From positions 1,736,001 through 1,800,000 of the forward strand of contig CM030337.1 of assembly GCA_017654855.1 (NCBI GenBank): 64,000 bases of DNA. The letters are read 5' to 3'. A program made the translations under genes and the position numbers. The notes beneath the pieces are model-generated. The model was not told the origin of the DNA, searched no databases, and saw nothing but the letters and a program-made list of their open reading frames with translations. Source of the DNA: Podospora anserina. Lineage: Eukaryota. The number at the start of each line of letters is the position of its first letter. Within the stretch, counting starts at the first letter, position 1. Below are positions 28,160 through 55,793 of this stretch, one piece after another.

Positions 28160-28363
28160 TTTGGGAAATTGTATCATATTGATCGACTTTGGTTTTGGGT
28201 GTGCCTGATGCTTTGGCCGACCTGCTAGGTACGGCCAGGGATTTGGTATGGAGTTTGGAGTTGGGTCAGTACTGCATATAACAAATCTTTATAAAGTCCC
28301 TCCTCTCCCCTGATATGAAATGCTTCTCTTCGTTACTTCCCTTACCTTTATCTGGCTGTTACG

Positions 28364-31300
28364 ATGCCTGTGGCTCGTAGCTTAACTGAAAAAGCCGCCA
28401 AACGAATCGCGAGACAAGTTCAACGCTTTGCCTTTCAGAATCCCAACACATTTACCTCCGATGATGTGAAAATCGCGGTAGCGATCCAAGGCGAGAATAT
28501 CAAGGGTCGGGATACTCCTCGAGATGATGAATCGGAACTTACGGAAAAGAATCTTGCTTGGGCCAAGGAGAAGACCAGAGTCAAGGATATGCAACGTTTG
28601 AAGGACTACTATATGGCAAATCAAGACAACAACACGACTCAGACCGAATTACACAGTCCCTATTCACCCGTTGTCCTCAAGGATACTAACTCAAGACAAA
28701 CACGAGCAAAGACTGCAGCTGGACTGCAAAATACAACGCCTCGAGTCAAGGAATCCTCTGTCACCCCTGTCAACGGACCCGTGGATACAAACGGTAAAGC
28801 ATTAAAGAATACTGCAGAACAGGGAAAGTCGGGGAACTTAAAGGGACAGACTACTGTAGCTGGACTACAGAGAAAGGAGTCTTTACAAGGTCCAAGTGCT
28901 ATGCAACAGCAAAATGAAATTTTGAAAAAGGCACAAACGTCAGAAGTTACGCTGGCGCCTTCGAAGCCGAAGCCAAAGCAAGGCCAAAGCCAGACGACAA
29001 ATCAACCGCAAAGAAAGCCAACATTAAACGGTCAGAGTGGCGGCCCACAGGCACAAATCACTCCACAAGGCACCGGCATGCAAAAGAAGGCAACTTCGGA
29101 TGGAAACAGGTCAGACTCACAGCGAGTATTAGTTGCTAGCCTGCCAAAATTACAAATCCCACAGGCACCGGAGCTGGGAAAGGAAATTACATCTGCTCAA
29201 CAGAAGAAAGCGGCTGAGCCACAGAGAAAGGGCACGACATCTCAGAAGTTAGCTGAGCCTCAGACTGCACCTACTCAGCAGAGGAAGATGACAGAGCCAG
29301 CGATAAAGGGAACGACGTCGATTCCCGAGAAGTTGGCTGAGCCACAGAGAAAGGGAACGACGTCAACTTCCCAGAGGAAGGAGGCTGAGCCAGTGAGAAA
29401 GGGAACGACGCCAATTACTCAAATGGCCGGGCCACAGAGAAGGGGAACCTCTGGGCAACCTCCTACGTTTAATATACAAAGAAAAAACTCTTCACAGTTG
29501 CCCATGGCCGAAAGAAATCAGAAACACCCGCCACAGCATGATTATTCAGTAGGCTTGCGGGTTTTTCCTGTAGCCCCGGATCAAAAGTCTTCGCAAGGGC
29601 AGGCTGCTGCATCACACAAGCCTGCTACCCCCACAGCACACAGCTTGGGACAGTATCACAAAAAACAGGGTACTTCACAAATACCCGGACAGCCTTCAGC
29701 GGGGCAAGAACAATCCGAATCTCAAAAGAACCATGCAACAAGAGCAACTCCACATAGCATAGAAACAGAGATATTCCCCAACAGCCTGACAGGTTCCAAG
29801 CGCAAGGCCTCCGGCCCTCTTCCAACGACCGGCACAAAGCGTTTCCGCCCAGACACCGCAAGAGCGAATGTACAAATTAACGGGAATGAAGAGCTTGCCA
29901 CAAAGCCATTATCTCACAGGGATTCAGATACACGCCAATCAGTTCAAATAAATGACGCCCCGCAAGGGGTATTAGAAACACAGTCGAAGGAACCATTCGA
30001 CGAAGACACCATCATGGCTGAGTCGCCAGTTGAAATCTCATCTACCAGCAACCGAAATAGAAAGAGGCAAAAGAAGTTGGTGGATAGCGAAAAAAGTATC
30101 AATGATAAAAATGATAGGAAGCGAAAACGACAAAACTCGCACTCTTCTGGCGACGAGGTAAATATCAGGCCCTTTGCTCAAACATATCAGTCCAATCAGC
30201 ACCAGAGTCATGAGGCTTCTTCTCAACCAATGCAACACAAAAAGTTCACCCTTCAACCTAGTGTATCTCCGGAAAACAACATATCAACGGACCAAACGTC
30301 AATAAATTCGAACAAAGCAGCCGAAGTTCACATACCGCAAAAGCCGAATATTATATTCGAATCGATGTACAAGAACTTTCAGAATCAACGTCCTGAACCG
30401 CAGGAAAATCCTACATCCCAAGAGAAAAACTCACCAACTAGTCAGCCTGCGCAGCTATCGGGACAGGAGCCCGCTCGAGTGAACAGCCCAAAAAGCCCAC
30501 AAGGCGAAGCACAAGCATCGCATATGGGTGAGCAGCCCAGATCCCGGGATACATCAACACCAGAAAAATATTCACATACATATCATCAATGTAAAAAGAT
30601 GTTTGATAAAGAGAGGCAGCTGTTTTCCGGACAATCACTACCGTCCGTGACTCCAAATGTGAGCCACATACACCCGCATTTCTCAACCACGAAGCAAGAG
30701 GTTGACGAAACTTGGCCACCGCATATCCGACGATCGACCAGCACGTGTACTTTGGATGGGAGGCCGGTATTGCCGCAACAATACCAAAGCCAGTTATTCA
30801 CGCAACGGAATTCGGGCACAGAGAACGAGGCTTGGCCACCACAAGGTGCTCGATCGGCTAGTATATCCACACCGCCACAATACCAAAGCCAGCCATTCAC
30901 GCAACTTAATTCGGGAACGCATTATTCACCTCCAGACAGTCGATACCACCATGCGAGAGGAATTAGTCCTTATGCGGACGAGCGGGAATTATTTCAACAA
31001 TTCCAAGACTGGCGTGTTCGCCAGCATGTGAACGCGCCCAATCGTTTAGCTTCTCGACAACCTACAGAAATTCCCCTCTTTAACTCTAACAGTTTGCTAC
31101 CAAAATCAAATTCGAAAGATAACTTCACCTATCCATCTTCGTCTTTGAAGATAGAGCTTGCGCTAAACAAAAGACTCGCCAAGATACAATCGGGAAAGCC
31201 TGCAGGACAGCCGCCCACCTATTTAACATTTGATATTCAGAATGGAAACCAATATTATAGATGCAAGGGTGAAGTTATTGGTCTCGATAGACTTCTCGGT

Positions 31301-31663
31301 ACGCAGTATCTCTATGTCGTTGGAATGATGCCAAACGGTGTCCCGCAAGGACATCTCCTTAAGGCCAACCAATTTCCCGAAATACAAACACAGCTGGCAC
31401 CCTACAACAACGCCATTACGAAAACGGAAGTTGTTAATTTGAAGCCGAAAGATGTGACGGTGTTGAGTTTTGCTATTATCACATCGAGTGGCACTCGTAG
31501 AACACCAGTGGTTAAAATCGAGCTATTCAATCATCGAACCAATAGCATCCAGCTTTGCTCAAGAACTTCACTAGCAAATGCTCTTTCCACGGCAACCGTC
31601 ACAGCGACATTAAGGGAGATCTCAAAAACGACCTCGCAAGATGTATCCTTTTTGGATAAATAG
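28364..31663 (+). CDS. 1099-aa largely disordered Q/S/T/K/P-rich protein with a small globular C-terminal domain
   Basis: Uninterrupted 3.3-kb ORF with AEPQRKGTTS repeats, NLS-like RNRKRQKK and RKRKRQ, and an ordered last ~170 aa. Confidence 0.75.
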   Translation: MPVARSLTEKAAKRIARQVQRFAFQNPNTFTSDDVKIAVAIQGENIKGRDTPRDDESELTEKNLAWAKEKTRVKDMQRLKDYYMANQDNNTTQTELHSPYSPVVLKDTNSRQTRAKTAAGLQNTTPRVKESSVTPVNGPVDTNGKALKNTAEQGKSGNLKGQTTVAGLQRKESLQGPSAMQQQNEILKKAQTSEVTLAPSKPKPKQGQSQTTNQPQRKPTLNGQSGGPQAQITPQGTGMQKKATSDGNRSDSQRVLVASLPKLQIPQAPELGKEITSAQQKKAAEPQRKGTTSQKLAEPQTAPTQQRKMTEPAIKGTTSIPEKLAEPQRKGTTSTSQRKEAEPVRKGTTPITQMAGPQRRGTSGQPPTFNIQRKNSSQLPMAERNQKHPPQHDYSVGLRVFPVAPDQKSSQGQAAASHKPATPTAHSLGQYHKKQGTSQIPGQPSAGQEQSESQKNHATRATPHSIETEIFPNSLTGSKRKASGPLPTTGTKRFRPDTARANVQINGNEELATKPLSHRDSDTRQSVQINDAPQGVLETQSKEPFDEDTIMAESPVEISSTSNRNRKRQKKLVDSEKSINDKNDRKRKRQNSHSSGDEVNIRPFAQTYQSNQHQSHEASSQPMQHKKFTLQPSVSPENNISTDQTSINSNKAAEVHIPQKPNIIFESMYKNFQNQRPEPQENPTSQEKNSPTSQPAQLSGQEPARVNSPKSPQGEAQASHMGEQPRSRDTSTPEKYSHTYHQCKKMFDKERQLFSGQSLPSVTPNVSHIHPHFSTTKQEVDETWPPHIRRSTSTCTLDGRPVLPQQYQSQLFTQRNSGTENEAWPPQGARSASISTPPQYQSQPFTQLNSGTHYSPPDSRYHHARGISPYADERELFQQFQDWRVRQHVNAPNRLASRQPTEIPLFNSNSLLPKSNSKDNFTYPSSSLKIELALNKRLAKIQSGKPAGQPPTYLTFDIQNGNQYYRCKGEVIGLDRLLGTQYLYVVGMMPNGVPQGHLLKANQFPEIQTQLAPYNNAITKTEVVNLKPKDVTVLSFAIITSSGTRRTPVVKIELFNHRTNSIQLCSRTSLANALSTATVTATLREISKTTSQDVSFLDK

Positions 31664-31809
31664 ACTGCGAAATGTTTTGGGAAGGGACATAATGAATTTA
31701 AAGACTGGGCTTAAAAGTATTGGTTCTTTAAAGGATGTAATATTTTTTTAAAGTAAATTGAATTTTAAGAAGAATCCACCCTATAGAATTAGCTACAAAA
31801 TACTCCATC

Positions 31810-32340
31810 TTATCCATTGCCAGAATAATGCTGAAAAAGTGAGTAATAGCCACCTTTCCTAGCAATAAGATCTTGATGTGTTCCCTCTTCGCAGACTTGA
31901 CCATTGTTTGATAAAAATAATATGTTGTGGGCGTGCATGACCGAGGATAATCGGTGCCTAGAAGCAATAAGTGATTAGTACCTAGGTGAATGACCTCCAA
32001 AAAGATAGGTACATACGCAATAAGAATTGTTGTCTTTCCTTGGAACCACTCTCTCAGGTTCATGTTTACTTGAGTCTCAGTATCGGCATCGATTGCACTG
32101 GTTCCCTCGTCTACAACAACAATATCGGGGTTTTGGACAAACAAGCGAGCTAGCCCAAATCTTTGTCTCTCCCCGCCCGACCATCCACTACTGTGCACTC
32201 GATTAATATTGTCCCAGGTCACAAATGTTATTCAAACTTACCCTCCACGGCTAAGTACCTCATGGTATCCGTTCTCGCGACTCATAATACAATCGTGGAT
32301 GTTCGCCTTCTTGCAAGCCTCGCGGACCTCTTCGAAGCAC
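31810..32340 (-). pseudogene. C-terminal half of an ABC nucleotide-binding domain (5'-truncated paralog)
   Basis: EEVREACKKANIHDCIMSRENGY, WSGGERQRFGLARLFVQNPDIVVVDEGTSAID and IA|HRLSSV..EEGTHQDL. Confidence 0.85.
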
Positions 32341-32366
32341 AGGATACTTACCACGCACCCATGTAG

Positions 32367-32550
32367 AAATTTCTCGGGCGGCGAGAGGCAGCGGATCCTC
32401 CTGTCCCTTCCCCTGACCAACTTCCATACTTTATGCATAAGCTGACTTTTCTGGTATGTCAGTCATCGGCTATCCTCCATCAGGCATGTCGAACAGATTT
32501 TTGTACTGGGTACAAACGGCAAAATCACGGAGCGCGGCACTCATGGCACA
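32367..32550 (+). pseudogene. 3' remnant of an ABC NBD; likely continuation of the 1872-2839 gene
   Basis: TAG acceptor at 32364-32366, then NFSGGERQRILLS and later HRLSSIRHVEQIFVLGTNGKITERGTH. Walker B is deleted. Confidence 0.75.
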
Positions 32551-34205
32551 GGAGAGGTTCTAGTCATGCGTAGAAAACAACATCGTACTGTTAAAATCTG
32601 TAGATTTTTGAGTAGAAAGAGAAAGTTTGGAAGAAGAAGACTACAAAGCCAAGTTCACAAATTGTTACTGTACCTAAGCACGCTTTAATCGTAGTGTACC
32701 GAGTCACGAATGTATGATCATCGCGGCAGCCCTGCGCTCATCAACTTGCGAGGGACAAGCGCCTCTTCCGGCCCCATATCGGCTTCCGTCAAAGAGCCGT
32801 GATCCCCAGCCCGGGACAAACACACGCAAAATTGCGCTGAGATGTCGGCCGAACAGTGAGCATCAAGGTATGGATCTTAAGCACAGACAAAAAGGAAGAA
32901 ATGCAAGGGTGAAAAAGTGGGATAGAATAGTAGGGTAGGTAGGATGATGGCTCATGATCCCAAAAAAGCTACATGGTTAGGCATGGAAGCCCTTCCCCGC
33001 ATTGGACAGGATATCAATGAAGATTGATGACATTATTGAGTTGGCTCCAGAATATCACTACAATTTTCCCCTCCCGCCGCAGCATCCTTCCCCCCCGCAA
33101 CAATCGCCATCTCCAATACAGCAGCGATTTGCAACAAACCGGAGCCGCTACTACGCGGAAGAGCAGGACCGAGGAAGGTGACCCGAGAGCGCCGCCAGTT
33201 ACTCTCTATCGTCCATCGCCCGCACACGGTATCGCCCTCTCTCTTGCCTAGCCAACCCGGCATTGCATAGACATCCGCTAACCAGCTCCAGGATACATGA
33301 TGGCTGATGCCGCAGCCGACTCCCGCCCGGACAAGCGACTTAACCAACGACTGCCGCGCCCTATCGACGACGGCCCGTAGCAGCATGTCTGGGTTATCCA
33401 CTCCGAGTAGAACGTAGAGGGACGCCCGCGACCGGCTGACGCGGAGCAGCGCACCACCATCTCCGGCGGCCATGCCGGCGCTTTAAGGAGGCTGCGCGTA
33501 TACCGACTTCCAAAAAACCACTACCTCTATGTCCGATGGGATTTGCCATCGACGCAGGCCGAATTCACAACCCTTGGAAGAAAGCTTGGGGTCGACTACA
33601 GCCTCGTACAGTCACTTTCCATCAATTGGCTGTCCTGGAAGTTCCGTGTCCGCCCGGTATTCGTTGAGCATCACAATGGCCTGCCGTTTGGCAGAATCTT
33701 AGCCGAGACGTGCGCCTTGAGGGCTTCGATGCGAGAGCGGGAGGGGATAGATTCCCATGAATGCATAAGCCTGTTGTAATATACCACGCTTGCCTTTGGA
33801 TGTTTGGATACTCGTTTTGATGAGGGTAGATGACTTTGGTGAAGGAGGTTAAGGATATCCCTCCTAAGCTTTCCTCACACCCCAGTATAGTGTATGTCAA
33901 CTATCAAAGAGTCCTCCAGCCACTCGCTATATTCAACCTTATTGCCTGTCCCATTCGTCGTTGTCTGCTGAGCACCACCAAAGTGATGCTTCAACGTCTT
34001 CCCGTCAGCTCCACCATCCAGGCCATTGCTGTAATCCGCCCCCAGTGTCCCCAAGTTCGTCTTACCACACGAAGATCCGCTCCAACCTACCTTCGTGGTG
34101 AGAACAGCTAAATCCAAGTATACAAGGCTAGCCGAGTACGCGGCTGGGCGGGGAGAAGAGCGGGTTGGGGCTCCTGCATTAGTGCAACTTTTTACAGCCA
34201 CCCCC

Positions 34206-34606
34206 GGCTGACCTAACGACAGGGATCACAAAACTGTGATGCCTGTAAGTGTTAATGGGCCTCTTGTTCAACGATGTAATTTTAGCCCGCAATGCATGTC
34301 CGCAGTTGCGTCTAGCTAGTTTTGGTTTCCGGATATAGGGGAACCGGCCGCCTGGACGAGCATCTGGAGCGCTCATATTCTACTGGTCAATGTTGGCTCG
34401 CTCACATTGACTTCCGGGGCTGATGCGTGTACGGCGTTCAATCTGCACTTTCAAGGATCACAGTTTTGTGTTCCATATCATCAGGTCAGCTTTGCCATCT
34501 TACAGGCATCACAGTTTGTGATCCATGTCGCCAGGTCAGCCTTTGGCCCATCTGCACTTTCAAGGATCACAGTTTTGCGATCCCTGTCATTAGGCCAGCT
34601 TTTGGG
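34206..34606. repeat. Three ~55-bp direct repeats with palindromic core GATCACA-GTTT-TGTGATC plus one inverted copy
   Basis: Units start at 34441, 34497 and 34550. 34206-34249 is the reverse complement of the unit (CTTACAGGCATCACAGTTTTGTGATCCCTGTCGTTAGGTCAGCC). Confidence 0.85.
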
Positions 34607-34880
34607 TCATGTTCCGAGCCAACCTTCTGATTTACACAATCGGCAGTTGACGCTGAAGTCGAACTACCCACACTCGGCATCACTATGAGCTGGTAAATTA
34701 GGAAATACTTGAACTTAATGAGGTCTATTGTCTGTAAAGACAGTTAAAGTATTTAAGTCTGACCGATACTCCCCTATTTGCTTTCATACCTGTCTCTTAT
34801 TCTCCACAAGCCAGACACAGTTTACCTCTATTTATTATCGGTTTACTAGCACCTTTTACTTCTACTCTCAGCATATCAAT

Positions 34881-35859
34881 ATGGTTAAGTTGAGAGACGT
34901 TCTCCTTCAGGCCCCGTTTCCAGATAATACTGCCTCATTTCACAGATTACTAGGAGCTGGCAGACCCACTCTGACCCAGAAGCCCTGGGCGCGAGACTAT
35001 CATGAGATCCAAAACCTTCAATACTATCTAAACCCTACCGAAGACGACATCGATCAAGTGTTTGGGCCCGAAGATGCTTTAGACGCCTATCTCCTGAACA
35101 GGGAGGTAAGCCCTCTAAACGTCACTACCGAATTGTTACAGACGGAGGGCGACTCTGTCAGGACATTCTACACCAAAGTCGCAGAACCCATCCAGCTCGC
35201 CTTCCAACCAGTTGTCGCTTTACGGTCAGAATCAGGACCTCTTGGCCCAACCGACGTTAACCAGACCATTGACTTCACTTGGGGATATAGAAATCATTGC
35301 CTTATAATAGGGGAACTTAAAAGGCATGGGATAATCGATGTCGATAGGTGGACGGGAGTGGCTGGACAAAATACTACTCGGACCTGGCTAGGAAAGGAGC
35401 TAAGAGGGTAAGTATAATAGCCCCATAATAATAACTGTTTACTGATAGATATATAGATACTGCTATAAATACAAATGCTTCGCTGGAACAATATTTGACG
35501 GCCAGCACCTCATGATCCTTATATTTCATGCTCAGGCAGCTCGGAATATCCGCGACCAAAACTGCCAAGTTACTGCCCTTTTTTTCACAAGCAACTGGGA
35601 AACATTACGCTATGGCCTCTTCCGGACCATGACCCATCAGATTCGGAGAATGCAAGCTGCCGAGCCCCTGGAAGTAATCTTGGATGGTTATCATCGTAGA
35701 TTCAGATGGTATTCAGGAATGCCTTATTGGGTTGATAGGAACGATGAATACGACGCGCATCCCAATGGTTATATACGGCAATTTCATGTGTCCGGGGCAT
35801 GGTACTGGATTGACGGGGATGGGCAGCGGGTCTGGGATACTATCGGCCTCGGGTTTTAA
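34881..35859 (+). CDS. PD-(D/E)XK restriction-endonuclease-fold-like protein, 2 exons
   Basis: QTEGD..TIDFTWG..LIIGELKRHG..KELRG|YCYKY..IFDGQHLMIL gives E..D..ExK..ExxxY spacing. The intron from ~35408 joins in frame, and there are no internal stops. Confidence 0.65.
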
Positions 35860-36025
35860 CATCTGCAGTTTCCGCCTAATTGAGTTTTGGTGCCTAGAAA
35901 AGTGGATCCCACTCGTTTGCTTGTGCTACCTTCTTCTTTTTATAAAAACCTTAAGCCAATTCCACCTCGCTTAATTTTCCTGCGACCATTCTCCTCTATC
36001 ACTCTACCCTATCAATTACTTCAAG

Positions 36026-36952
36026 ATGGAAGACAATGAAGACTGCGGAACTAAGGTATATACTTTAACTTCTAAATACTAAAATTTACTATTATTAATC
36101 GTAGTTCTATAGGACATACAGTTTGGCTTCCGACGTTTTCGAGCACCTGCAAAACGAATCTACGCGAATCGGAATGTCTTTCTCTTGGATGTCCCGCCGA
36201 ACCCAATTGCTAGCTGGCTATTATTTTGGATGCCGCAGCTCGTCCGCTGGCTACAGCGATTACTACCAGAGTGGTTCTTGCCGACAACTGTTATTCTAAA
36301 GGAGCGAAACCCCACCAAGGCTGATAGCTACGAAAACGAAATCGATACATACCTGCATCTTCGATCCCTCCAGGGTACCCACATCCCGCGTTTGTTTGGT
36401 GAAGTAACCGTTAGCGACCCCCACGCGCAGAGATACCAGATCAGTAAGCGACCCACTCCTGCTATCCTCCTAGAAAACGTCGAAGGAGTATCGCTATACA
36501 ATCTTCCAACCGAAGAGCTAGGGAATCCTCGCCTTCTTGAGGAACTCGAGGATATGTATAACCTACTTACGGAAAAAGGGGTTGTTCATGGGGATCCAAA
36601 GCTCCACAACTTTCTACGTGTTGATAAGAAGATCGTTGCTATCGACTTTGAGTTGTCCTACCCTCTTCCTAGTGATATAACGAATGAGCATGAATTGGAG
36701 GAATTAAAGAGCGAGATTAAGGAACGGGAAAAGCAGGCACAGGAGGCAAAATTGGAACGTCTCGTCCCGGGCCCTGTCATTGTAAATGGTTTACGGGTAC
36801 GAAAGAGGACGGATTTGCCGCCTTCCGGCACAACGACCCATAACGAGCAGAGGGGTGACGAGGGGCTGTCTACCCTGGGAGCTCAGCTACCTAAGGTGTG
36901 TTCTCGGCACGGGCGTGTTGGGCCGCGGCCGGGAACGACATATGGTGGATGA
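36026..36952 (+). CDS. Atypical protein kinase-like protein (same motif style as the SPOK kinase domain), 2 exons
   Basis: VILKE (beta3 Lys), ENEIDTYLHLRSLQGTHIPRLFG, ILLENVEG, HGDPKLHNFL (catalytic loop) and IDFE. Confidence 0.85.
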
Positions 36953-38386
36953 GGTGGAGAGGTGGTGTGGTGAGAAAGAAGGGGAGGAAATGGAGGTTAG
37001 CGGAAAGTGAGACGTGGGGGGTGCACTCGGGAAGGATGGATGGGCACTGACGGGAGTAGGAGGGGTTTCTATGTAGGAGCCGGGTGGCCGGGTTTATCTG
37101 CCGTTTAGCTCTTCTCCCTTAGTCAAATCACATGTTAGGCAAGGCCGAGCTCCGGCATGCCGACAAGAGGAGTGTGCTCGCGTGGATCTTCAACTGTACG
37201 CAACTGCTTCTGGCCTTCGTGTTCGACGGGTACTGCTAGATTCTGTAACACATTAGCAAGACATCTCAGGAAGGAAAGGACCGTCTCACCTTTTGATGTA
37301 GTATCCTGCCCTTCGGGTATAAGTGGATTGAAGAAGCCATTCACTGGGCACTGCTTCCCACGCGGCCACAATTGCCCGGCGAAGTGGCCCAGGCCGTGGG
37401 TTTTCCACATCGTAATGTAATTCAATTCAATTTTTCATCCAAAACCTCACATGTTCAATAGGATTCAAATCAGGACTTTTTGCCGGCCAATTCAAATGTT
37501 CAATGCCCACACTGGTCATGACGCACAGGCCAACCCGCAACAGATTCTTAAATGTTACAGGCGATGGAGACTTTGACTGACGTGCCTGTCCCGCCCCTGC
37601 CCCACTCCTTTTTTTCGGCCTGGCTTCCTTCTGACTCTTGGCACGTGCCTGGCCAAGTCAGGCTCCATCAAAGGAGCCCCCACCTGTAACTCCGCTCGAC
37701 CACGACATTCCCGCAACGACCTCCAGCGTGCTGATCTCGCTCATGGACCCAATAACTTCGCTACCAGTACATGCCAACGCAGAATCACAAACTCATGTCT
37801 CAAAGCCAGCAGGCGTACAGTGAACGGGACTAGGCCCATCGGCCGTCGTATTGAGCGGGAGATCCAACTATCTAATTAACCCTAGCCAACCCGAGACAGT
37901 TTCCACATTGGTGGTACGTGCTGTCACATGCATGACGGGTAAGGTCCACCATAAATCAAAATTGTTATGATATCATGGCGTCTCCAAAGCAAGGCCCCCC
38001 TTGACAGCAGGTAGCAATAGCGCAACAACATCCAGCGATACCCGTAAGAACTTGTCTAACCCAAGATATTTCACCCCCTCTCATCGTTGTTGTGGTGGCT
38101 GTTGGTTGCAGCTCAAAATTCATCCTCTCTTTTTGACTGATATTCGGGCATTTCGTCGAGTGTTCACCGGCTGACATGGCTGAAGCTGGCATGTCGATCT
38201 GCGAATGTAAGCGTGGTGATCTGGTCTATCAAGAGATGTGGTAAGGTACCTTGAGTCAAGCAACGGGGAGAGCTTCTGAGGAGATAAATTACGTTATTTG
38301 TGGAAGTGGTATAGGAAAAAGGCACGTTCAAGACGAAGACCATACGTTCTTTTTAAGGGATACAGAAGAGATTGAAGCATGTGTTT

Positions 38387-38556
38387 GGCGGAGGGAGTGG
38401 CGGAGGGAGAGGGCGGAGGGAGTGGCGGAGGGAGTGGCGGAGGGAGAGGGCGGAGGGAGTGGCGGAGGGAGTGGCGGAGGGAGAGGGCGGAGGGAGTGGC
38501 GGAGGGAGAGGGCGGAGGGAGGGGCGGAGGGAGGGGCGGAGGGAGGGGCGGGCGGA
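38387..38556. repeat. G-rich array of GGCGGAGGGAG(T/AG/G) 12-13-mers
   Basis: About a dozen copies; the core is the reverse complement of the CTCCCTCCGCC core of the 6061 array. Confidence 0.9.
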
Positions 38557-38589
38557 GCAGAGACCGAGGGAGAGGATTGCAGGGGTCAA

Positions 38590-39260
38590 GGAGATGCAAG
38601 TGTCGCTTTTCCGCAGAACGGTACCTGTTTTTTATTACCGGCATACCACCATATATAGTCAGATATCCCGAAGATATCGAACCGCCGCCAGCCACGTTCC
38701 ATAGCTTTGGTCGGCAGCCCGATATGTGGGAACGATTCTCTCAGCCGTATGTTTCCCAGCTTGGGAAGATTGTATTGCCATTGGAAATGCCCGAGTTTCT
38801 TTCGCACGCTCTGGGCAATCAGTCCCCACTTCCCCAGCTCCAGGCATAGGTACTTATGAGAGGAAATATAAGGGAATCTTGCGCCAACATGAATCCAAAT
38901 ACGTTCCACTATCACTGCCCACTGTATCACCACGATATATTTCCCTCCAGATTCACGCGTATAAATCAATTATTACTACCAGGATTGCAAGTATGTCCTG
39001 CCTGCGAATGGGAAACTCAGTCCTTCCCGGTCTTCTTCCCGATGGAGTTACTGCGGTCGAAGCATGATTTCAGGGTCACTTACGACATGTCCCTTGGAAA
39101 GTACTCACGTTTGTCTGACATATATCGCTCTAGAAGCCCCATCATCAGATTCATTAGGAAGGAAAGAGTGCTGAACATGAAAGAAAGAAACTCGGAGATT
39201 TCTCACGATATTGCCGCTGCCCGCTTAAGCAGAACTGGAAAGGTCATCTGCTCTCATTAG
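38590..39260 (+). pseudogene. Hypothetical protein with in-frame TAG at 38847-38849
   Basis: ORFs ending 38849 and starting 38856 share a frame (LQA*VLMRGN). The start is uncertain. Confidence 0.35.
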
Positions 39261-39603
39261 CGCGGATTGGCTATTTCTGACGCTCCCAGTTTCAGTTTGA
39301 CCCCTCTTCACCAACGCTCTCAGATTAGAGTGGCTCGGTAGATCCCGAGTTAGAACGGCGCGGTCGGCCGTGCCATGACACCGTCGCCCGAGGACAAGAG
39401 TTGATGGATGCCGCTGGCGGCGCGGTTGTCATTGGTGGCATTTCTGCTCCACTAACAGGTCAACGACGGCACGGTTGCTGAGCGATTGTTGCTTCATATT
39501 CCTGTGGCCGTTTCAGATGACCCTTATAATTCAGCACTTAGAGCTCTCAAATTTTGCAAATTCAGCATCATCGTACCATCCTCGGCCCCATCAGCTCAAA
39601 AAG

Positions 39604-40227
39604 ATGACCAGAAGTGCGACTCTCCGACGGCCCAAGGCATCCCGTGCTATGCCCAAAAAGCGTCGAACAACCCGTGCTCCCAAAAAATATGGCGGCGCCT
39701 GCAAGCGGCATACCTCGCGCGCTCACAAATGCTCGGTTGGTTTCCAGCACCTAACGGGCAACATAGAAGCCACCATATCATCACCGAATGAACACACGAA
39801 CGAACCCGGCCCGGAAGGCAACACTGATCTTGCGACAATCCAAGCCATACAACCCCAAACGACTCAGTCACAGGCCTTCGATTTGATTGATCAAGTTTTG
39901 ATGGCGGAGTGGGACTCCCTTTTCGAACAGCCTCAGAATTCTTTCCCGGAAGGCCAATATCAATTTCAGATGGCAGAATGGGACTTTCTTGCCTCTGTGT
40001 GGGCCGCCCCGGGCCTGGCCGGGGGGACCGAAGATGCGGCAGGATTTGGCTATGACTGGACGAATTTTGATGAAAATTCCACCAAGTTGGACCATGGTTA
40101 TGCGGGGCTGGTTGATGGCAGCATGGGCTCGGATAATGGCCAGCTTTTTGGTTTAGAAGATATTTGGAGTGGGTTGGAAGCATACGATATACATCAGTTC
40201 ATGGACAGTCATATTGGGGAAATGTAA
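39604..40227 (+). CDS. Hypothetical protein: basic N-terminus with ACKRH..HKC motif and acidic/aromatic activation-domain-like C-terminus
   Basis: PKKRRTTRAPKKYGGACKRHTSRAHKC and a D/E/F/W-rich tail; convergent with the captain. Confidence 0.45.
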   Translation: MTRSATLRRPKASRAMPKKRRTTRAPKKYGGACKRHTSRAHKCSVGFQHLTGNIEATISSPNEHTNEPGPEGNTDLATIQAIQPQTTQSQAFDLIDQVLMAEWDSLFEQPQNSFPEGQYQFQMAEWDFLASVWAAPGLAGGTEDAAGFGYDWTNFDENSTKLDHGYAGLVDGSMGSDNGQLFGLEDIWSGLEAYDIHQFMDSHIGEM

Positions 40228-40475
40228 AGGCTGAATTAGATTACTTAAAATGTAGTTGGAAGGTGATGTTGTTATTTACGGTGGTGGGCTGAAGATAAAT
40301 AAAAGACAGATATAGGTCGCCAGGAGTAAATACACATGAAAGATTTTGCTACCAAGAAACTGAGAAGCTACCTTAGGTAAAGACGAAAAAACTCCATGCT
40401 TGAAGACCCCAAATCACGAACGAACTGTTATGTCTACTACGCTTGAGTCAAAGTGCTGCTACCAACTGGGAAAGC

Positions 40476-43050
40476 CTACATACTCTCTTTCCGCTTTTTC
40501 GTATCAATGTCCTGGACACCGTCATCCTTCCTTTTCCGCTTTCTTTCTATCTTGCCACACACAGCTGTTCCCGCTTGTCCGTCCTGCTGATGACAGTTCC
40601 ATGTATGGTCCAACCACTCCTCGCGTGTTTTTATTTCCACCGCTACCAAACCTTTCCTCTTGCATTCCGGGCATTCAAATGGCTTTTTGAACATCTTGCT
40701 ATGGGACTTATTGACATGTCTTGAGTGGCTATTTCCGGGGTGGTGCATTTGTTCGCAAAACAGGCATCGGGCTGATCTGGTCGTTGGTGTTTTAGTTGGA
40801 CGTCCCTTTTTGTCAGACCTTTTACTAGGCAACCACGGCGTATAATTTATACCGTGGCACTTGGCTGTGTGGTTACTCCACGCCTGAGGACCTTCAATAA
40901 TAATATCGGGACAAAGGGGGCATGGTATAGGTTTGTCGAACGTCCCCTTCTTGAAGTGTTGATCTTGGTTGTGCCGTGTTAAACCATTACGGTTAGCGAA
41001 GGTGCGTTGGCAAAAGAGGCATGTCCATGCCTTAGTATCAGGTTCCTCAACCATCGTCTGCGCTTCGGTGAGAGAATGTATCACTGCCTTAAGCTCTGTG
41101 ACACGGTGCCCCAAATATGAGACGAGCATTCGACAGTATATCTCGGTTCTCCTTGGCTTCCCAAGATCTCTGCCAGCCAAAAACCTGCCCATGTAACCTC
41201 CTTGGTCGTGAGGATGGGGGGCAGGAGGGGTGCCTCGGGGTATCGGGATATCTTCAATCGACTGGCCTAGCGCCCGGCGTCGATCCACCTCTTCCAAATA
41301 TTCACCTCTCCGCTTTTCCACCATCAAGGCCAGTATCTGTTTCCGTCTATTCGCCAGCGTAGCATAAGCTCGACTGATATCGGGAGAGGAGGATCTTGTT
41401 TTTGCCTGTTCATACTCCCAAGTAAGCTTGGTAATATCCTCACGTTGTCGTAGACTTTTCTCATCCTCTTCGGTAGGATATAGGGGTGCATTGACGTCTC
41501 TGAGAAGTGTGGCGCGCTGAAGACTGCGAAAGAGTGAGTGGTGTTCTCCTGCGGCATCAGTGCCAAATATGATTGGCATAAGCTCCTGGCGTATATGCTC
41601 TGGCTGGTAGCTCGATTCAAACACAGCTGTTGTATTTGACATAAGGTGACCGCGCAAGGCCGGAGTCAGAGGGCCTGTGTCAAGGTTAGTGAGGGCTTTG
41701 AAAGATCGTCAGGTTTGAATCGTACCATCGAGGAGAGACCCTGCACCAACGCGCAGCGAGTAAGGCCTGATCGTGTCGCGGTTTCCCGCCACACGCCACA
41801 ACTCATTCCACATGCCCCAATACTTATAGTAGGGCATAGGGAAAATCTCTTGCTCCATTTTGTCTTCTTTCCATCTAAGATCGAGGCAGTCCGTCTGGTC
41901 TAAGTTTGGTCGCGTCAGTATCTCCTCTAAAGAACCAAACTCAGCCTCGAAAGCATTGTCGTGAATAGCTTGTGCGATAATCAAGCTGAGAAGACAGATC
42001 GTCTGGCATGGGACAAGAGTAATAGAGAATTGTACGCTATAAAATATTAGAAGAGGAGTCTCAAAGTACTATTTGCTGACCACTTACACTGCATTGTGTG
42101 AGTTTGCGGTATACTGGCGCCTCTTATTGTGAACAATCTTAATCGTTGCGCAAATCGCAAGATTTTTCGGATTATTATCAACTCGCAAGCATCGAATACG
42201 AACATGCTGATATTTAAAGGAGACAATAGAGCCAGGGCGGAACCCAAATCCTGCGAGTAGAAGGACCGAGTGAAATGCAACCCGTTGCCTTGCGGTACAT
42301 CGGAGATCTGATGGTCGTGTCCAGAGCGTGTCCAAAAGGAGAATAATATCGTCAGATGTTAGAACTTTCTTCTCAAATGTTTGCTCCCTGGATAAATAAA
42401 GCTCATCGCTCAATTCAACTCGAATCCACTACGTAACTAGTTAATACTTGATCGAAAATAAGAAAATGAAAAGACTAACCCTGGATACATCGGCGACAGG
42501 TCCAGACCCGGGATTGCCCCCGGCCCCCACGTCCGCCCATCTTAACTTCCATTTATGTCTATTATTCGGGTCGTTGTGTCGTGCTTCGTTCAGAATAGTT
42601 GTGTCGGCCATGTAGACGATATTCCTCCAGAAAGTAAGAGCCGACTTCGCCGCGGATATGGTCTGAACTACTTGTGTTTCGGATTTACCAATGGCCGGGC
42701 GCTTTTGTCGTGACCGTAGAACGTACTCATAGAGAAATGCCCGAATCAGGCTTTTGGGTTTATCCTTATTCTCACAAAAGTCCATCCAAGCAGTCGTCAT
42801 GCTGTAATCTTGGTAGGGAATAGTACGATACCACCTACGAAGCTGTTAGTGGCTTGCCTTCTTGAACTATTTAAGGTACTAACCACTCAAACTTTTGCCA
42901 ATCTCTTTGGGCGGCTTCCTGGGCTTTTTTACTGACGGGTACAAACTCGAGGATCGGATTTGACTCAAACCGCTGGATAAGTTGAGCAGCGCTTACGAGC
43001 CCGGCGTCCTCATCATCCGAGTCGAGTGAAATTTGGAGAACTCGAGGCAT
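40476..43050 (-). CDS. Starship captain: DUF3435 tyrosine recombinase with four C-terminal C2H2 zinc fingers, 5 exons, ~790 aa
   Basis: Four GT-AG introns splice in frame with no stops. Motifs GFRPGSI (R), HNKR (K), RPYSLRVGAG (YxxR), LMSN..VFESSY (Tyr) and RDVNAP. Fingers: CLFC..H..H, CPLC..H..H, CLFC..H..H and CPEC..H..H. Confidence 0.92.
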
Positions 43051-43096
43051 GGTTATTAGAAGGCGTGGACGAGGATATGCTTGACGTGATGCTGGT

Positions 43097-43152
43097 GGAT
43101 GATGGTTGATGGATGATGGTTGATGGATGATGGTTGATGGATGATGGTTGAT
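43097..43152. repeat. GGATGATGGTTGAT x4 in the captain 5' leader/promoter
   Basis: Four perfect 14-bp copies. Confidence 0.9.
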
Positions 43153-43400
43153 GGATGGTGGGTTGAGTTGGCTAGCTGATGTTAACCCGCAACGAAATGA
43201 TGGCGGGAATCCATATAAATATTATGGATTAAAATTATCTATTTAAAGTAGTGGCGCTGGCATAACGGTGTTTTGGACGTTATGGCTACGCCATTTAAAA
43301 CGGGCACAGCCGTTAATTGCTTAACATGAAGATCTGTCGCGGCCATTTTCAGCCCTCGTTCTGTCACAAATTTGGGTGGTAGATATCTCAAAAGATAAAA

Positions 43401-43461
43401 CTGGTAGAGCCGAACCAGTACTCAGGTGGGTTTCCACTGGGGAATCCTCGGTGTTGTATGT
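43401..43461 (+). rRNA. 3' half of a 5S rRNA gene (about nt 58-118), interrupted by the Starship
   Basis: CTGGTAGAGCCGAACCAGTACTCAGGTGGGTTTCCACTGGGGAATCCTCGGTGTTGTATG shows loop E AGTA/GAA, helix GTGG/CCAC, CCGA/TCGG pairing and the ascomycete 5S end TGTTGTATG. The upstream sequence is not 5S-like. Confidence 0.85.
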
Positions 43462-43462
43462 A

Positions 43463-43468
43463 TTTTTT
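43463..43468 (+). terminator. RNA polymerase III oligo-T terminator of the 5S gene
   Basis: TTTTTT immediately after the 5S 3' end. Confidence 0.7.
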
Positions 43469-44041
43469 GGTCTATTTCCCCCCCTAAGCCCTTTTCTAAG
43501 GGCTAGCATTTACTACATATTCACCATCCGGCTCCTTGATTGCTTTATCTTGGAGTGTCAAGACATGTTCACACGAAAGATTAAGCATAGTGGGTGGATC
43601 AGGTAGCACGGCATTTCACTAGTGCGATTACTTTTGGAAGCTGCACCGGCACATCACCTGCCTCCCGCGTTTGAAGATAGACAGCTTGCAGGTGAGCCCC
43701 CATCTTTAGGAAGAAATATACCTCATGATTCCTGGATACAAAATGTGGGATGAGACAGCGGGAGCAGTCGTCATACCCCACGGGATTCCTCATGCAGAGA
43801 GCAGCACTGCGGCTGAGCGCTCAAGGGGGAAGGACGTTGAGGTGTGGCGTATGCAGCTTGCGAAAAGGGGGAAGGTGGGCGGTGGGTTGTTATCAGATGG
43901 GCTTCATGAGGGAGGGACATGATGCCATTCAGTTGAGGCAACGACTTGCAGATAAATACGATGATTCATCATGGCAATCTCTAGCTTAGCTGCCCAACCT
44001 CATCCATATCTTCAAACACTGCCCGCTTATCACCTGCCGAA

Positions 44042-55076: not shown

Positions 55077-55793
55077 TGCGCGTCAGCTCTATACCTAGGC
55101 AATCACCTTGTACGATACTGAAACAGTATATTTAGCGGGATTGAGCTCGTGAATATGGTCTGGGTGTTGAGAGAAGATGGCAAGAGAGAGATTGCAGCCT
55201 TCGAGGCATCAAGCTGTGCCACATCACGCCAAGGGCGCCTGTGTTGCCGCCACGGATGGTTACACAGACATAGTGCGAACTGCTCCCGTTGGCCAGGCAC
55301 GATCTCACCAAGTCACAGAACCAACATTTTCCATATTGAAAAACCCCGTTAGAATATCACTACCTAATGGGATAACAATGTGTGCTAGCATAGGTAGAAA
55401 ATGGCAACATACAGGACTACTATACCTGCATCAGTTACGACACAATGACTGGTCTCACTTGGTCAGGCCTTTTAACCTGCCTCTCTATATCGATGCCCAC
55501 TTAATAGGCACTGTTTTCCGAAGTTCTCTTTCAGGTAATATCAAGGTAATATCATACAATCGATTCCATGTTTCCCCAAGATCAAAGTATAACAGAGACC
55601 TTGAAAGGATCTACAGTGTATAAGTCAACTTCTGTGACTGATAATGAGCGACAAGTGTATTCAAAGAGCGTCCCAATCTACCTTATCTAACCTGACATCT
55701 TCCGTGTCACCACCACCCATGTATACCCAACCCATCTACTATCTTATCAGATACATACTTGATCCTCACCCTTTTTCCAACGAACCCAGGTCC

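What the first reader, a model, noticed from the sequence alone, without database searches (positions are those of the whole stretch)
34881..36952. Intact two-gene nuclease + kinase module on a Starship: candidate split SPOK-like toxin-antidote or drive system
Seen: two co-oriented genes only ~170 bp apart. The first has PD-(D/E)XK-type spacing (TIDF..GELK..ELRGY..FDG); the second is a kinase with YxxLxxLQGxxIP..HGD..N..IDFE. Both are stop-free while most neighbouring cargo carries nonsense mutations. Known: Podospora SPOK meiotic drivers fuse a restriction-like nuclease (killing) to a kinase of this motif style (resistance) and ride the Enterprise Starship. Inference: this could be an unfused version acting as an element-addiction or spore-killing module.
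Basis: partly seen in the sequence, partly recalled or inferred. Interest (0 to 1): 0.85.

Follow-up and report, generated by a model that had tools for sequence, protein, structure and literature searches.

The report
Split nuclease–kinase gene pair in Podospora
Two neighbouring fungal genes encode a restriction-enzyme-like nuclease and a small kinase that stay together (or are fused) in many fungi, so they resemble a two-piece version of the single-protein SPOK spore killers, but whether they kill or protect has not been tested.

Summary
Gene 1 (34881-35859, one 49-nt intron, ~310 aa) and gene 2 (36026-36952, one 57-nt intron, 289 aa) are intact, co-oriented and 166 bp apart.

- **Gene 1:** a close homologue folds with pLDDT 95.6. 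Its best structural matches are PD-(D/E)XK nuclease domains: BpuSI Z 11.2 and Vibrio vulnificus HsdR Z 8.6. E89, D91, D131, E145-x-K147 and ELRGY are conserved.
- **Gene 2:** a minimal RIO/Bud32-like kinase with a complete catalytic set. It is 100% identical to Podospora anserina Pa_6_2440. The Enterprise paper names Pa_6_2440 as the closest paralogue of Chekof, an Enterprise gene of unknown function. Contigs of three runs show its intron spliced out.
- **Linkage:** the genes are adjacent in at least five annotated genomes and in 3 of 4 testable metagenome contigs. They are annotated as one fused protein in two species.
- **Not shown:** sequence homology to SPOK (only a language-model lead), any toxin-antidote or drive activity, and Starship membership. 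An apparently intact DUF3435 recombinase gene lies 3.5 kb away, but no element borders were found.
- **Differences from SPOK:** no coiled coil and no cysteine cluster.
- **Variant:** other runs hold a gene-1 variant with a premature stop.

Verdict: a new split variant of the known nuclease-plus-kinase conflict module. The mechanism is inferred.

The parts
34881..35407 (+). Gene 1 exon 1 (residues 1-175 plus two bases of codon 176). It holds the N-terminal region and the nuclease core, with E89, D91, D131, E145 and K147.
   Evidence: Homologues.
35408..35456 (+). Gene 1 intron, 49 nt, GTAAGT...TAG, phase 2.
   Evidence: Read from the sequence. The junction agrees with homologues. An intron sits at the same place in L001 and L003.
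35457..35859 (+). Gene 1 exon 2 (Y177 to F310, stop TAA at 35857-35859). It holds the rest of the nuclease core and a beta-rich C-terminal part.
35860..36025 (+). Intergenic spacer of 166 bp. Spliced kinase contigs begin at 35988, 36002 or 36014.
36026..36055 (+). Gene 2 (kinase, = Pa_6_2440) exon 1, encoding MEDNEDCGTK.
36056..36112 (+). Gene 2 intron, 57 nt, GT..AG, seen spliced out.
   Evidence: a joint in contigs of 3 of 4 runs.
36113..36952 (+). Gene 2 exon 2: a RIO/Bud32-like kinase core (about 215 folded residues) followed by a disordered tail.
40476..43050 (-). Context: a DUF3435-type tyrosine recombinase gene (the Starship-captain type) with four canonical introns and C-terminal C2H2 fingers. 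It is convergent with the pair.

Best explanation
The two genes form one functional module: an HsdR-N/BpuSI-like PD-(D/E)XK nuclease (gene 1) and its cognate minimal RIO/Bud32-like kinase (gene 2 = Pa_6_2440). It is a split form of the nuclease-plus-kinase architecture known from SPOK drivers and Crinkler toxin domains.

The most likely working is as follows. The nuclease is the harmful effector, attacking DNA or another phosphodiester substrate. The kinase, made from its own transcript, holds it in check. It would do so by phosphorylating either the nuclease or the shared target.

The pair would therefore behave as a toxin plus antidote or regulator carried in accessory, mobile DNA.

Shown here: the folds, the intact catalytic residues, conserved linkage and fusion, and splicing of the kinase transcript. 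Inferred: toxicity, neutralisation, and any addiction or drive effect.
For: Nuclease (gene 1):
- The AF2 model of the 74%/65% identical homologue P0154 has pLDDT 95.6 and pTM 0.93.
- Best matches among 48,161 chains are BpuSI (Z 11.2, rmsd 2.6, 139 aligned), DrdV (Z 9.3) and the V. vulnificus HsdR fragment 3h1t (Z 8.6).
- 10 of the top 20 rows are named restriction endonuclease, HsdR, nuclease or endonuclease in their titles.
- Vogan 2019 names V. vulnificus HsdR as the best HHpred hit of the SPOK3 killing domain (passages).
- E89, D91, D131, E145, K147 and ELRGY are at least 90% conserved in 51 sequences spanning four ascomycete classes.
- They sit on the canonical elements: helix 89-108, strand 130-136 and strand 139-146.

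Kinase (gene 2):
- Pfam APH scores 28.8 bits against a cut-off of 23.2.
- K, D and D are invariant, and H-G-x-x-x-x-x-N is at least 90% conserved, in 41 sequences.
- Best structural matches are Rio2 (Z 15.1), Rio1 (Z 13.6) and Bud32 (Z 12.6).

Linkage:
- 10 of 52 kinase hits share organism and contig length with a gene-1-family hit. Five of these have consecutive or near-consecutive locus tags.
- 3 of 4 testable metagenome loci found with the kinase alone carry gene 1 upstream on the same strand.
- There are two annotated fusions. P0163 is 573 aa. P0132 is 498 aa and is colinear with both window genes.
- Atlas structure rows show 472-aa ascomycete clusters and 566-aa Crinkler-plus-kinase clusters. 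Their N-terminal part matches gene 1 at TM 0.57-0.58.

Expression: contigs of 3 runs from 3 studies join the kinase exons exactly at the predicted borders.

Precedent:
- In SPOK3 the nuclease lysine is needed for killing and the kinase aspartate for resistance, in cis and in trans.
- In Crinkler C-termini the nuclease is held to be the toxic part and the kinase its regulator.
Against: - No experiment or computation here shows that gene 1 is toxic, or that the kinase acts on it.
- Many kinase homologues have no annotated gene-1 partner. This includes all 9 hits named Podospora.
- At least 5 of 12 named close gene-1 homologues have no kinase hit on the same contig. The linkage is therefore frequent but not obligate. 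Both counts are lower bounds, because the window's own gene 1 is itself unannotated.
- One kinase-bearing locus (L004) lacks gene 1 in the 1,848 nt upstream.
- The two fusions could be merged gene models.
- In 4 of 4 laid runs, the only contigs over gene-1 exon 2 carry C>T changes. One of them turns codon 35566-35568 into a stop. The nuclease may therefore be decaying in this species.
Confidence: 0.5

Rival explanations
1. Defence or cell-death switch rather than addiction. The kinase senses a signal, such as infection, non-self or damage, and activates the nuclease, which then executes.
For: - Several cell-death and immunity-type genes lie in the same window: two HET-domain genes and an NPHP3_N/NACHT-plus-ankyrin gene.
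- The kinase fold is closest to RIO/Bud32 kinases and to small effector kinases.
Against: - In the only tested relatives by architecture (SPOK3), the kinase protects rather than activates.
- Orphan kinases are common. That fits an antidote better than an activator.
- No sensor domain was found in either protein.
Confidence: 0.2
2. Accessory machinery of a giant tyrosine-recombinase transposon. Nuclease and kinase help excision, integration or DNA processing of the element.
For: - The kinase is Pa_6_2440, the closest paralogue of Chekof. Chekof is one of four genes conserved in Enterprise, and the authors suggest these may have accessory roles in transposition (passages).
- A DUF3435 recombinase gene lies 3.5 kb away, oriented so that the pair would sit inside an element that starts with it.
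- The kinase family is multi-copy. Paralogues at 78-94% identity occur within closely related Podospora species.
Against: - The same paper finds that Kirc alone is shared between the Podospora and Melanconium elements. It calls Kirc the minimal feature for transposition.
- No element borders or flanking repeats were found around the pair in 30000-44000.
- Short contigs of 5-10 kb carry the pair without a recombinase hit being sought or seen.
Confidence: 0.12
3. A relic. The kinase is a working orphan gene and gene 1 is on its way to becoming a pseudogene, so there is no joint function in this species today.
For: - Gene 1 is not among annotated Podospora proteins, while the kinase is.
- Contigs of 4 of 4 laid runs show a gene-1 exon-2 variant with five C>T changes, including a stop.
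- Another public ORF differs at residue 24.
Against: - In the window, gene 1 is stop-free. It keeps 37 of 38 strongly conserved residues and all catalytic ones.
- Whether the variant is an allele or a second copy is not known.
Confidence: 0.15
4. Two unrelated neighbours that happen to lie side by side.
For: The annotation-level linkage is incomplete.
Against: - Same order, same strand and a short gap recur in Sordariales and Xylariales genomes and in metagenome contigs.
- Fused models exist.
- Fused nuclease-plus-kinase clusters appear in the Atlas.
Confidence: 0.03

Closest known systems
SPOK meiotic drivers of Podospora (Spok1-4)
   Same: - An HsdR-like PD-(D/E)XK nuclease lies upstream of an atypical (ELK-like) kinase.
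- V. vulnificus HsdR, the protein Vogan 2019 reports as the best hit of the SPOK3 killing domain, is among the top structural matches here, alongside BpuSI.
- Both occur in the same genus, and both have a link to the Enterprise element.
   Different: - Two genes instead of one polypeptide.
- No N-terminal coiled coil and no C-x3-C-x13-C-x5-H-x7-H cluster.
- ExxxY instead of QxxxY in most members.
- No sequence-level hit to SPOK-length proteins.
- Function untested.
Crinkler (CR) toxin C-termini with a restriction-endonuclease domain plus a kinase (Zhang 2016, as summarised in PMC5289972)
   Same: - A nuclease is coupled to a kinase; the nuclease is thought to be the toxic part and the kinase its regulator.
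- An Atlas cluster carrying Crinkler (91% of members) and Pkinase (89%) matches gene 1 structurally at TM 0.57 over 211 residues.
   Different: - No Crinkler/ubiquitin-like header domain was found by Pfam.
- The proteins appear to be cytoplasmic fungal proteins, not secreted effectors.
- The module is split into two genes.
Chekof / Pa_6_2440 kinase family of the Enterprise element
   Same: Gene 2 is Pa_6_2440 itself, 279/279 identical. The paper names Pa_6_2440 as the closest paralogue of Chekof.
   Different: - The paper gives Chekof no function and mentions no nuclease partner.
- Here the paralogue has a conserved upstream nuclease gene.
- Whether Chekof has one was not testable, because the supplements are closed and no Enterprise DNA is held.
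N-terminal nuclease domains of type I (HsdR) and type IIG/IIL restriction enzymes (BpuSI, DrdV)
   Same: The fold and the placement of the D...ExK motif.
   Different: - No helicase, methylase or specificity domains.
- Eukaryotic, with an intron.
- Sequence similarity is undetectable by profile search of PDB sequences.
RIO / Bud32 minimal kinases
   Same: Best structural matches (Rio2 Z 15.1, Bud32 Z 12.6) and weak Pfam and NCBIfam hits.
   Different: - Scores lie far below the family cut-offs (31 bits against 125 for Bud32).
- It has its own N-terminal PEWFLP segment.
- Its phyletic pattern is accessory and multi-copy, not that of a housekeeping gene.

Membership tests
SPOK family | One polypeptide with an N-terminal coiled coil plus domain 1, a nuclease domain and a kinase domain | tested here: not met
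   There are two genes with a stop, 166 bp and a separate spliced transcript between them. The model shows only a 5-residue helix in the first 34 residues.
SPOK family | PD-(D/E)XK nuclease domain of HsdR type with a catalytic lysine | tested here: met
   BpuSI Z 11.2 and HsdR 3h1t Z 8.6. D131 and E145-x-K147 are conserved.
SPOK family | QxxxY motif after the catalytic core | tested here: inconclusive
   E173-L-R-G-Y177 is nearly invariant, with Q in place of E in P0147. Equivalence to the SPOK motif was not shown by alignment.
SPOK family | Cysteine/histidine cluster C-x3-C-x13-C-x5-H-x7-H before the kinase | tested here: not met
   A relaxed regular expression found none in 9 proteins: the window pieces, the fused forms and homologues.
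SPOK family | Kinase domain with a catalytic Asp, ELK-like | tested here: met
   HGD171, N176 and D188 are conserved. Closest folds are RIO and Bud32.
SPOK family | Detectable sequence homology to SPOK proteins | tested here: inconclusive
   0 of 98 hits of exon 1 are SPOK-length relatives. The 'longer' search with the kinase profile gave only P0163. The Atlas feature search gives a cluster with PF27653 SPOK2_N in 76% of members, at score 0.91 with 179 shared features. PF27653 is not in the local Pfam.
SPOK family | Spore killing and self-resistance | not testable with these tools
   Needs crosses or expression assays.
PD-(D/E)XK nuclease superfamily | alpha-beta-beta-beta-alpha-beta core with acidic residues and a lysine on strands 2 and 3 | tested here: met
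Protein-kinase-like superfamily (APH/RIO/Bud32 branch) | Family profile match above the cut-off and a complete catalytic set | tested here: met
   APH PF01636 scores 28.8 bits against a cut-off of 23.2. K73, E86, D171, N176 and D188 are present.
Crinkler effectors | N-terminal Crinkler/ubiquitin-like header domain | tested here: not met
   No Crinkler hit in Pfam scans of the window pieces, P0154, P0163 and P0132.
Crinkler effectors | Restriction-endonuclease domain coupled to a kinase | tested here: met
   Seen as adjacent genes or fusions. There is a structural match to a Crinkler-plus-kinase cluster.
Starship / Enterprise-like element cargo | A DUF3435 tyrosine recombinase as first gene, with the cargo inside defined borders | tested here: inconclusive
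   Three colinear DUF3435 pieces score 19.1, 24.4 and 22.5 bits, each below the 25.8 cut-off. The introns are canonical. No borders or flanking repeats were found. Insertion polymorphism was not tested.
Chekof / Pa_6_2440 kinase family | Identity to Pa_6_2440 | tested here: met
   279/279 identical. The relation to Chekof is taken from the paper.

The most novel reading that the evidence does not exclude
The pair is a trans-acting, two-gene counterpart of SPOK: a nuclease toxin with a separately encoded kinase antidote, spread across Pezizomycotina on giant recombinase-driven transposons. Orphan kinases such as Chekof on Enterprise would then be portable immunity genes against such nucleases. 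Starship-type elements would carry a second, unrecognised addiction or drive system beside Spok.
Probability: 0.2. Interest if true: 0.9.

Novelty: new variant of a known kind. Interest (0 to 1): 0.68.

Why it matters
- **A testable role for Chekof.** SPOK proteins combine killing and resistance in one chain, which has made the mechanism hard to dissect. A natural version with the nuclease and the kinase on separate genes would let each half be expressed, mutated and titrated alone. It would also give a testable role to Chekof, a conserved Enterprise gene of unknown function. The only paper found for that name, in a full-text search, is the Enterprise paper itself.
- **An unannotated nuclease gene.** The work reveals a nuclease gene that is not annotated in a model fungus. 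No Podospora protein of this family was returned.
- **An old, recurring association.** The restriction-nuclease-plus-kinase association, known from oomycete Crinklers and SPOK, also exists as a linked gene pair. It is found in Sordariomycetes, and the nuclease family extends to Dothideomycetes, Eurotiomycetes and Leotiomycetes.

Tried and rejected
- **Complex prediction:** Complex prediction on the natural adjacent pair of Corynascus sepedonium (P0155 + P0014) gave no answer, score 0.02 against a mark of 0.34. This says nothing either way.
- **Foldseek on the nuclease model:** against PDB it gave 0 matches at E <= 0.001. The exhaustive aligner was needed.
- **Sequence searches of PDB:** exon 1 alone and the family profile gave nothing meaningful.
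- **Family libraries:** Pfam gives no family for gene 1. PADLOC and NCBIfam give nothing for gene 1 and only sub-threshold Bud32/RIO-type hits for the kinase.
- **Own genome:** none is held, so paralogues in the same genome could not be sought.
- **Second copy in the window:** profile searches of all 910 window ORFs of at least 40 aa found none.
- **PF27653 SPOK2_N:** not in the local Pfam. No SPOK sequence could be obtained from any tool, so no direct alignment with SPOK was made.
- **Papers not held:** Zhang 2016 is not held under its DOI or its PMC id. Its content is cited only through two papers that summarise it.
- **RNA evidence for gene 1:** no RNA holder is listed on record for the stretch. 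Gene-1 exon 1 had no contig cover in the four laid runs. Neither is evidence on expression.
- **Scoty as the nuclease partner of Chekof:** considered because Scoty is the gene named just before Chekof in the paper's list of Enterprise genes. No support was found. No P. anserina or other Podospora protein, such as Pa_6_8905 (29% similar to Scoty), appears among the gene-1-family hits or in the 10 clusters opened. The paper's supplementary table on these genes could not be seen.
- **Repeats around the pair:** direct and inverted repeats in 30000-44000 gave no terminal repeats bracketing it.
- **Earlier findings of this scan:** none by place, sequence or words.
- **Literature on a split Spok-like pair:** the terms 'Spok + restriction endonuclease + kinase + Crinkler' matched 0 papers. 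'Starship + cargo + Spok + homologs + Sordariales' matched 1. 'Pa_6_2440' and its neighbours matched 1. 'Chekof' gave 1 relevant paper.
Full report
**What is there**

The stretch 34881-36952 holds two co-oriented genes on the + strand, each with one short canonical intron.

Gene 1:
- It runs 34881-35407, then a 49-nt intron (35408-35456, GTAAGT...TAG), then 35457-35859.
- The spliced junction ...KELRG|YCYKYK is the one seen in full-length homologues P0060, P0081, P0065 and P0154.
- Metagenome homologues have a 53-nt gap at the same place.

Gene 2:
- It runs 36026-36055, then a 57-nt intron (36056-36112), then 36113-36952.
- Its first ten residues match homologue P0004.
- Contigs of three of four laid runs, from three studies and guessed to be RNA, join the two exons exactly there with GT..AG ends and no other differences. 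The fourth run's contig starts at the exon-2 border.

The genes are 166 bp apart. Profile searches of all 910 window ORFs of at least 40 aa found no second copy of either gene.

**Gene 2 is a known but uncharacterised gene**

- Exon 2 is 279/279 identical to PODANS_6_2440 (Pa_6_2440) of Podospora anserina S mat+, named only 'uncharacterized protein'.
- Pfam places it in the APH phosphotransferase family, 28.8 bits against a cut-off of 23.2, with weaker RIO1 and WaaY hits.
- In an alignment of 41 homologues, the lysine of ILKERN, the aspartate of HGD and the aspartate of AIDFE are invariant. H, G and N of the catalytic loop are at least 90% conserved. In full-length numbering these are K73, D171, D188 and N176.
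- The window copy matches 67 of 67 strongly conserved columns present in exon 2.
- The AF2 model has a confident core (blocks mostly above 90) and a disordered tail after about residue 220.
- Its best structural matches are Rio2 (Z 15.1, rmsd 3.0, 160 aligned), Rio1 (13.6), RIOK3 (13.6), an archaeal RNA kinase Ark1 (12.7) and Bud32 (12.6). Foldseek agrees: PknG, Rio2, CK2 and Bud32 at E 2e-7 to 6e-6.
- It is therefore a minimal, atypical kinase with a full catalytic set.

**Gene 1 is a restriction-type nuclease**

- No Pfam family matches it.
- A search of 1.84 billion representatives with exon 1 gave 98 hits. Most are about 176 aa, which are exon-1-only gene calls. Full-length forms are 270-345 aa.
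- A profile search returned 126 proteins, 120 of them listed. Named members come from Sordariomycetes, and also from Venturia, Aspergillus, Emmonsiellopsis and Hymenoscyphus.
- In 51 aligned sequences, E89, D91, D131, E145, K147 and E173-L-R-G-Y177 are at least 90% conserved.
- The window keeps 37 of 38 such columns; the other is L to M.
- The model of P0154 is very confident, with pLDDT 95.6 and pTM 0.93. P0154 is 74% identical to exon 1 and 65% to exon 2 of the window.
- Foldseek against PDB found nothing at E <= 0.001.
- The exhaustive aligner gave BpuSI (Z 11.2, rmsd 2.6, 139 aligned, model 76-240), DrdV (9.3), the V. vulnificus HsdR fragment 3h1t (8.6) and EcoR124I HsdR (5.8), then a long list of restriction enzymes and other PD-(D/E)XK nucleases.
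- The conserved residues lie where the fold expects them: acidic residues at the start of helix 89-108, D131 on strand 130-136 and E145-x-K147 on strand 139-146.
- The Atlas's own model of P0154 likewise matches HSDR_N-type clusters, TM by row 0.65-0.67.

**The two genes belong together**

Comparison of the kinase hits (52 proteins) with the gene-1-family hits:
- Ten kinase hits share organism and contig length with a gene-1-family hit.
- Five of these have consecutive or near-consecutive locus tags:
  - Corynascus sepedonium 278/279
  - Chaetomium olivicolor 7489/7490
  - Xylariaceae sp. FL0594 470513/470514
  - Humicola hyalothermophila 6541/6542
  - Parathielavia hyrcaniae 99969/99972

An independent DNA-level test searched metagenome contigs with the kinase profile only and gave seven loci. 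tblastn on them showed:

| Locus | Result |
|---|---|
| L001, L003 | Gene 1 upstream on the same strand |
| L002 | The C-terminal end of gene 1 at the contig edge |
| L004 | No gene 1 in the 1,848 nt upstream; its kinase is split over two frames |
| L005 | Too close to the contig end to test |
| L006, L007 | Match only a 43-residue motif |

Fusions:
- Two annotated proteins fuse both parts. P0163 is from Xylaria sp. FL1042 (573 aa). P0132 is from Apiospora phragmitis (498 aa).
- P0132 aligns colinearly with both window genes.
- These may be true fusions or merged gene models. Either way they require adjacency and a shared strand.
- The Atlas also lists a 472-aa ascomycete 'protein kinase domain-containing' cluster and a 566-aa Mucoromycota cluster. 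In the latter, 91% of members carry Crinkler and 89% carry Pkinase. The N-terminal part of each matches gene 1, TM by query 0.57-0.58.

Against strict coupling:
- None of the nine kinase hits named Podospora has an annotated gene-1 partner.
- Five of twelve named close gene-1 homologues have no kinase hit on the same contig.
- These are lower bounds, because the window's own gene 1 is absent from the annotated proteins. The nearest full-length protein held is 74% identical.

**Relation to SPOK**

From the passages of Vogan 2019 that I read, SPOK3 has:
- an N-terminal coiled coil and domain 1;
- a PD-(D/E)XK domain whose best HHpred hit is V. vulnificus HsdR, with K240 needed for killing;
- a QxxxY motif;
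- a cysteine-histidine cluster;
- an ELK-like kinase whose D667 is needed for resistance, acting in cis and in trans.

The pair shares the nuclease type, the kinase type and their order. It lacks:
- the single chain;
- the coiled coil;
- the cysteine cluster.

Sequence searches did not reach SPOK-length proteins. None of the 98 hits is one; the single 807-aa hit is a repeat protein that matches in seven short stretches. Only P0163 came from the 'longer' search, which is itself weak evidence.

The one positive pointer is the Atlas feature search. It places P0154 at 0.91, with 179 of 256 shared features, next to a 341-aa cluster in which 76% of members carry Pfam PF27653 SPOK2_N. For exon 1 alone the score is 0.83. 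That family is not in the local Pfam, so this remains a lead.

My reading is that the pair works like the two catalytic domains of SPOK. Its membership in that family is open, at about 0.4 for a remote common origin.

**Relation to Crinklers and to Enterprise**

[quoted passage not shown] It summarises Zhang 2016, which I could not read. The nuclease is held to be the toxic part and the kinase its regulator. A Fusarium Spok paper makes the same link for SPOK.
- The Enterprise paper (passages) lists four conserved genes: Kirc, Scoty, Chekof and Uhera.
[quoted passage not shown] It mentions three further divergent paralogues.
- So the kinase half of this pair is the closest relative of a conserved gene of the Spok-carrying element. 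The paper does not mention an upstream nuclease.
- A full-text search finds 'Chekof' in no other relevant paper.
- One cluster member, P0283, is 84% identical to the window kinase. Its accession lies in a series that may correspond to the deposited Chekof record. That is my inference only.

**Starship context**

- Pieces on the minus strand match DUF3435 colinearly:

  | Piece | DUF3435 profile positions |
  |---|---|
  | 42084-42428 | 2-79 |
  | 41709-42068 | 97-210 |
  | 40476-41708 | 215-336 |

- Each piece is below the family cut-off on its own.
- The stops between them lie in introns with GTAAGT, GTACGA or GTTAGT donors, CTAAC-type branch sites and AG acceptors.
- The gene therefore looks intact from an ATG at 43050. 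It ends in C2H2 fingers.
- If it were the first gene of an element, the pair would lie inside that element.
- No borders were found and no presence/absence comparison was possible. 'On a Starship' is plausible, at roughly even odds, but not shown.
- The window shows no RIP-type composition.

**An unexplained variant**

- In all four laid runs, the only contigs over gene 1 are short, low-depth pieces within 35460-35754.
- They differ from the window by C>T at 35511, 35566 and 35592, and in some runs also at 35714 and 35723.
- The change at 35566 turns CAA into TAA (read).
- The kinase contigs of the same runs have no differences.
- A public ORF of exon 1 (P0198) differs at residue 24. It has P, as homologues do, where the window has L.
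- No exon-2 ORF above 65% identity is among the 313 proteins held.
- Whether this is an allele at the same locus or a second copy could not be decided. If allelic, the nuclease is broken while the kinase is kept. That is the decay order expected for a toxin-antidote pair, but it also fits simple loss of function.

**Verdict**

The best-supported account is a conserved, mobile, two-gene nuclease-kinase module in which the nuclease is the effector and the kinase its cognate regulator or antidote (0.5). The rivals are:
- an activating switch (0.2);
- a decaying relic (0.15);
- a role in transposition (0.12).

Spore killing itself is a minority possibility. It is a new split variant of a known architecture, with a new link to Chekof.

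Noticed in passing
window 35460-35754: Short low-depth contigs in 4 of 4 laid runs differ from the window only by C>T changes, at 35511, 35566, 35592, 35714 and 35723. The change at 35566 makes a stop in gene 1. The kinase contigs of the same runs are identical to the window. Whether this is an allele or a second copy is unknown.
   Followed up: partly
window 34881-35407 (codon 24): The window has Leu24. A public ORF of the same exon (P0198) and homologues P0154 and P0155 have Pro.
   Followed up: partly
window 34207-34602: A cluster of about 55-nt repeats lies 280-670 bp upstream of gene 1: three direct copies and one inverted copy. Each has a palindromic core of the GGATCACA...TGTGATCC type. 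It could be a small inverted-repeat element or a binding-site array.
   Followed up: no
window 40476-43050 (-): An apparently intact DUF3435 tyrosine recombinase gene with four canonical introns and C-terminal C2H2 zinc fingers. A 7/14-nt tandem repeat (43093-43166) lies just upstream of its ATG.
   Followed up: partly
window 38386-38551: A tandem array of a 12-nt GGCGGAGGGAG-type unit (also read as periods of 25 and 37), about 13 copies.
   Followed up: no
window 45882-49271 (-), 53433-55082 (-), 59373-61301 (-): An NLR-like gene (NPHP3_N/NACHT-type N-terminus followed by ankyrin repeats) and two HET-domain genes. This is an allorecognition or cell-death neighbourhood.
   Followed up: no
window 28319-31663 (+): A 1114-aa open frame with no Pfam match at E <= 0.01, and only noise at E <= 1.
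   Followed up: no
L004 1849-2551: A metagenome kinase homologue split over two frames, with no gene-1 match in the 1,848 nt upstream. It is possibly a decayed orphan copy.
   Followed up: no
proteins P0311 and P0080: A member of a wider gene-1-family cluster is named 'Decapping nuclease' in Madurella fahalii. A Schizothecium vesticola model joins a gene-1-like N-terminus to an alpha/beta-hydrolase domain.
   Followed up: no
window 34700-37100: Fourteen DNA-type runs hold 0.95-0.96 of the sampled words, and none holds all of them. By my arithmetic, five nearby substitutions would remove about 5% of the 31-letter words. These runs may therefore carry the variant gene 1. This was not tested.
   Followed up: no
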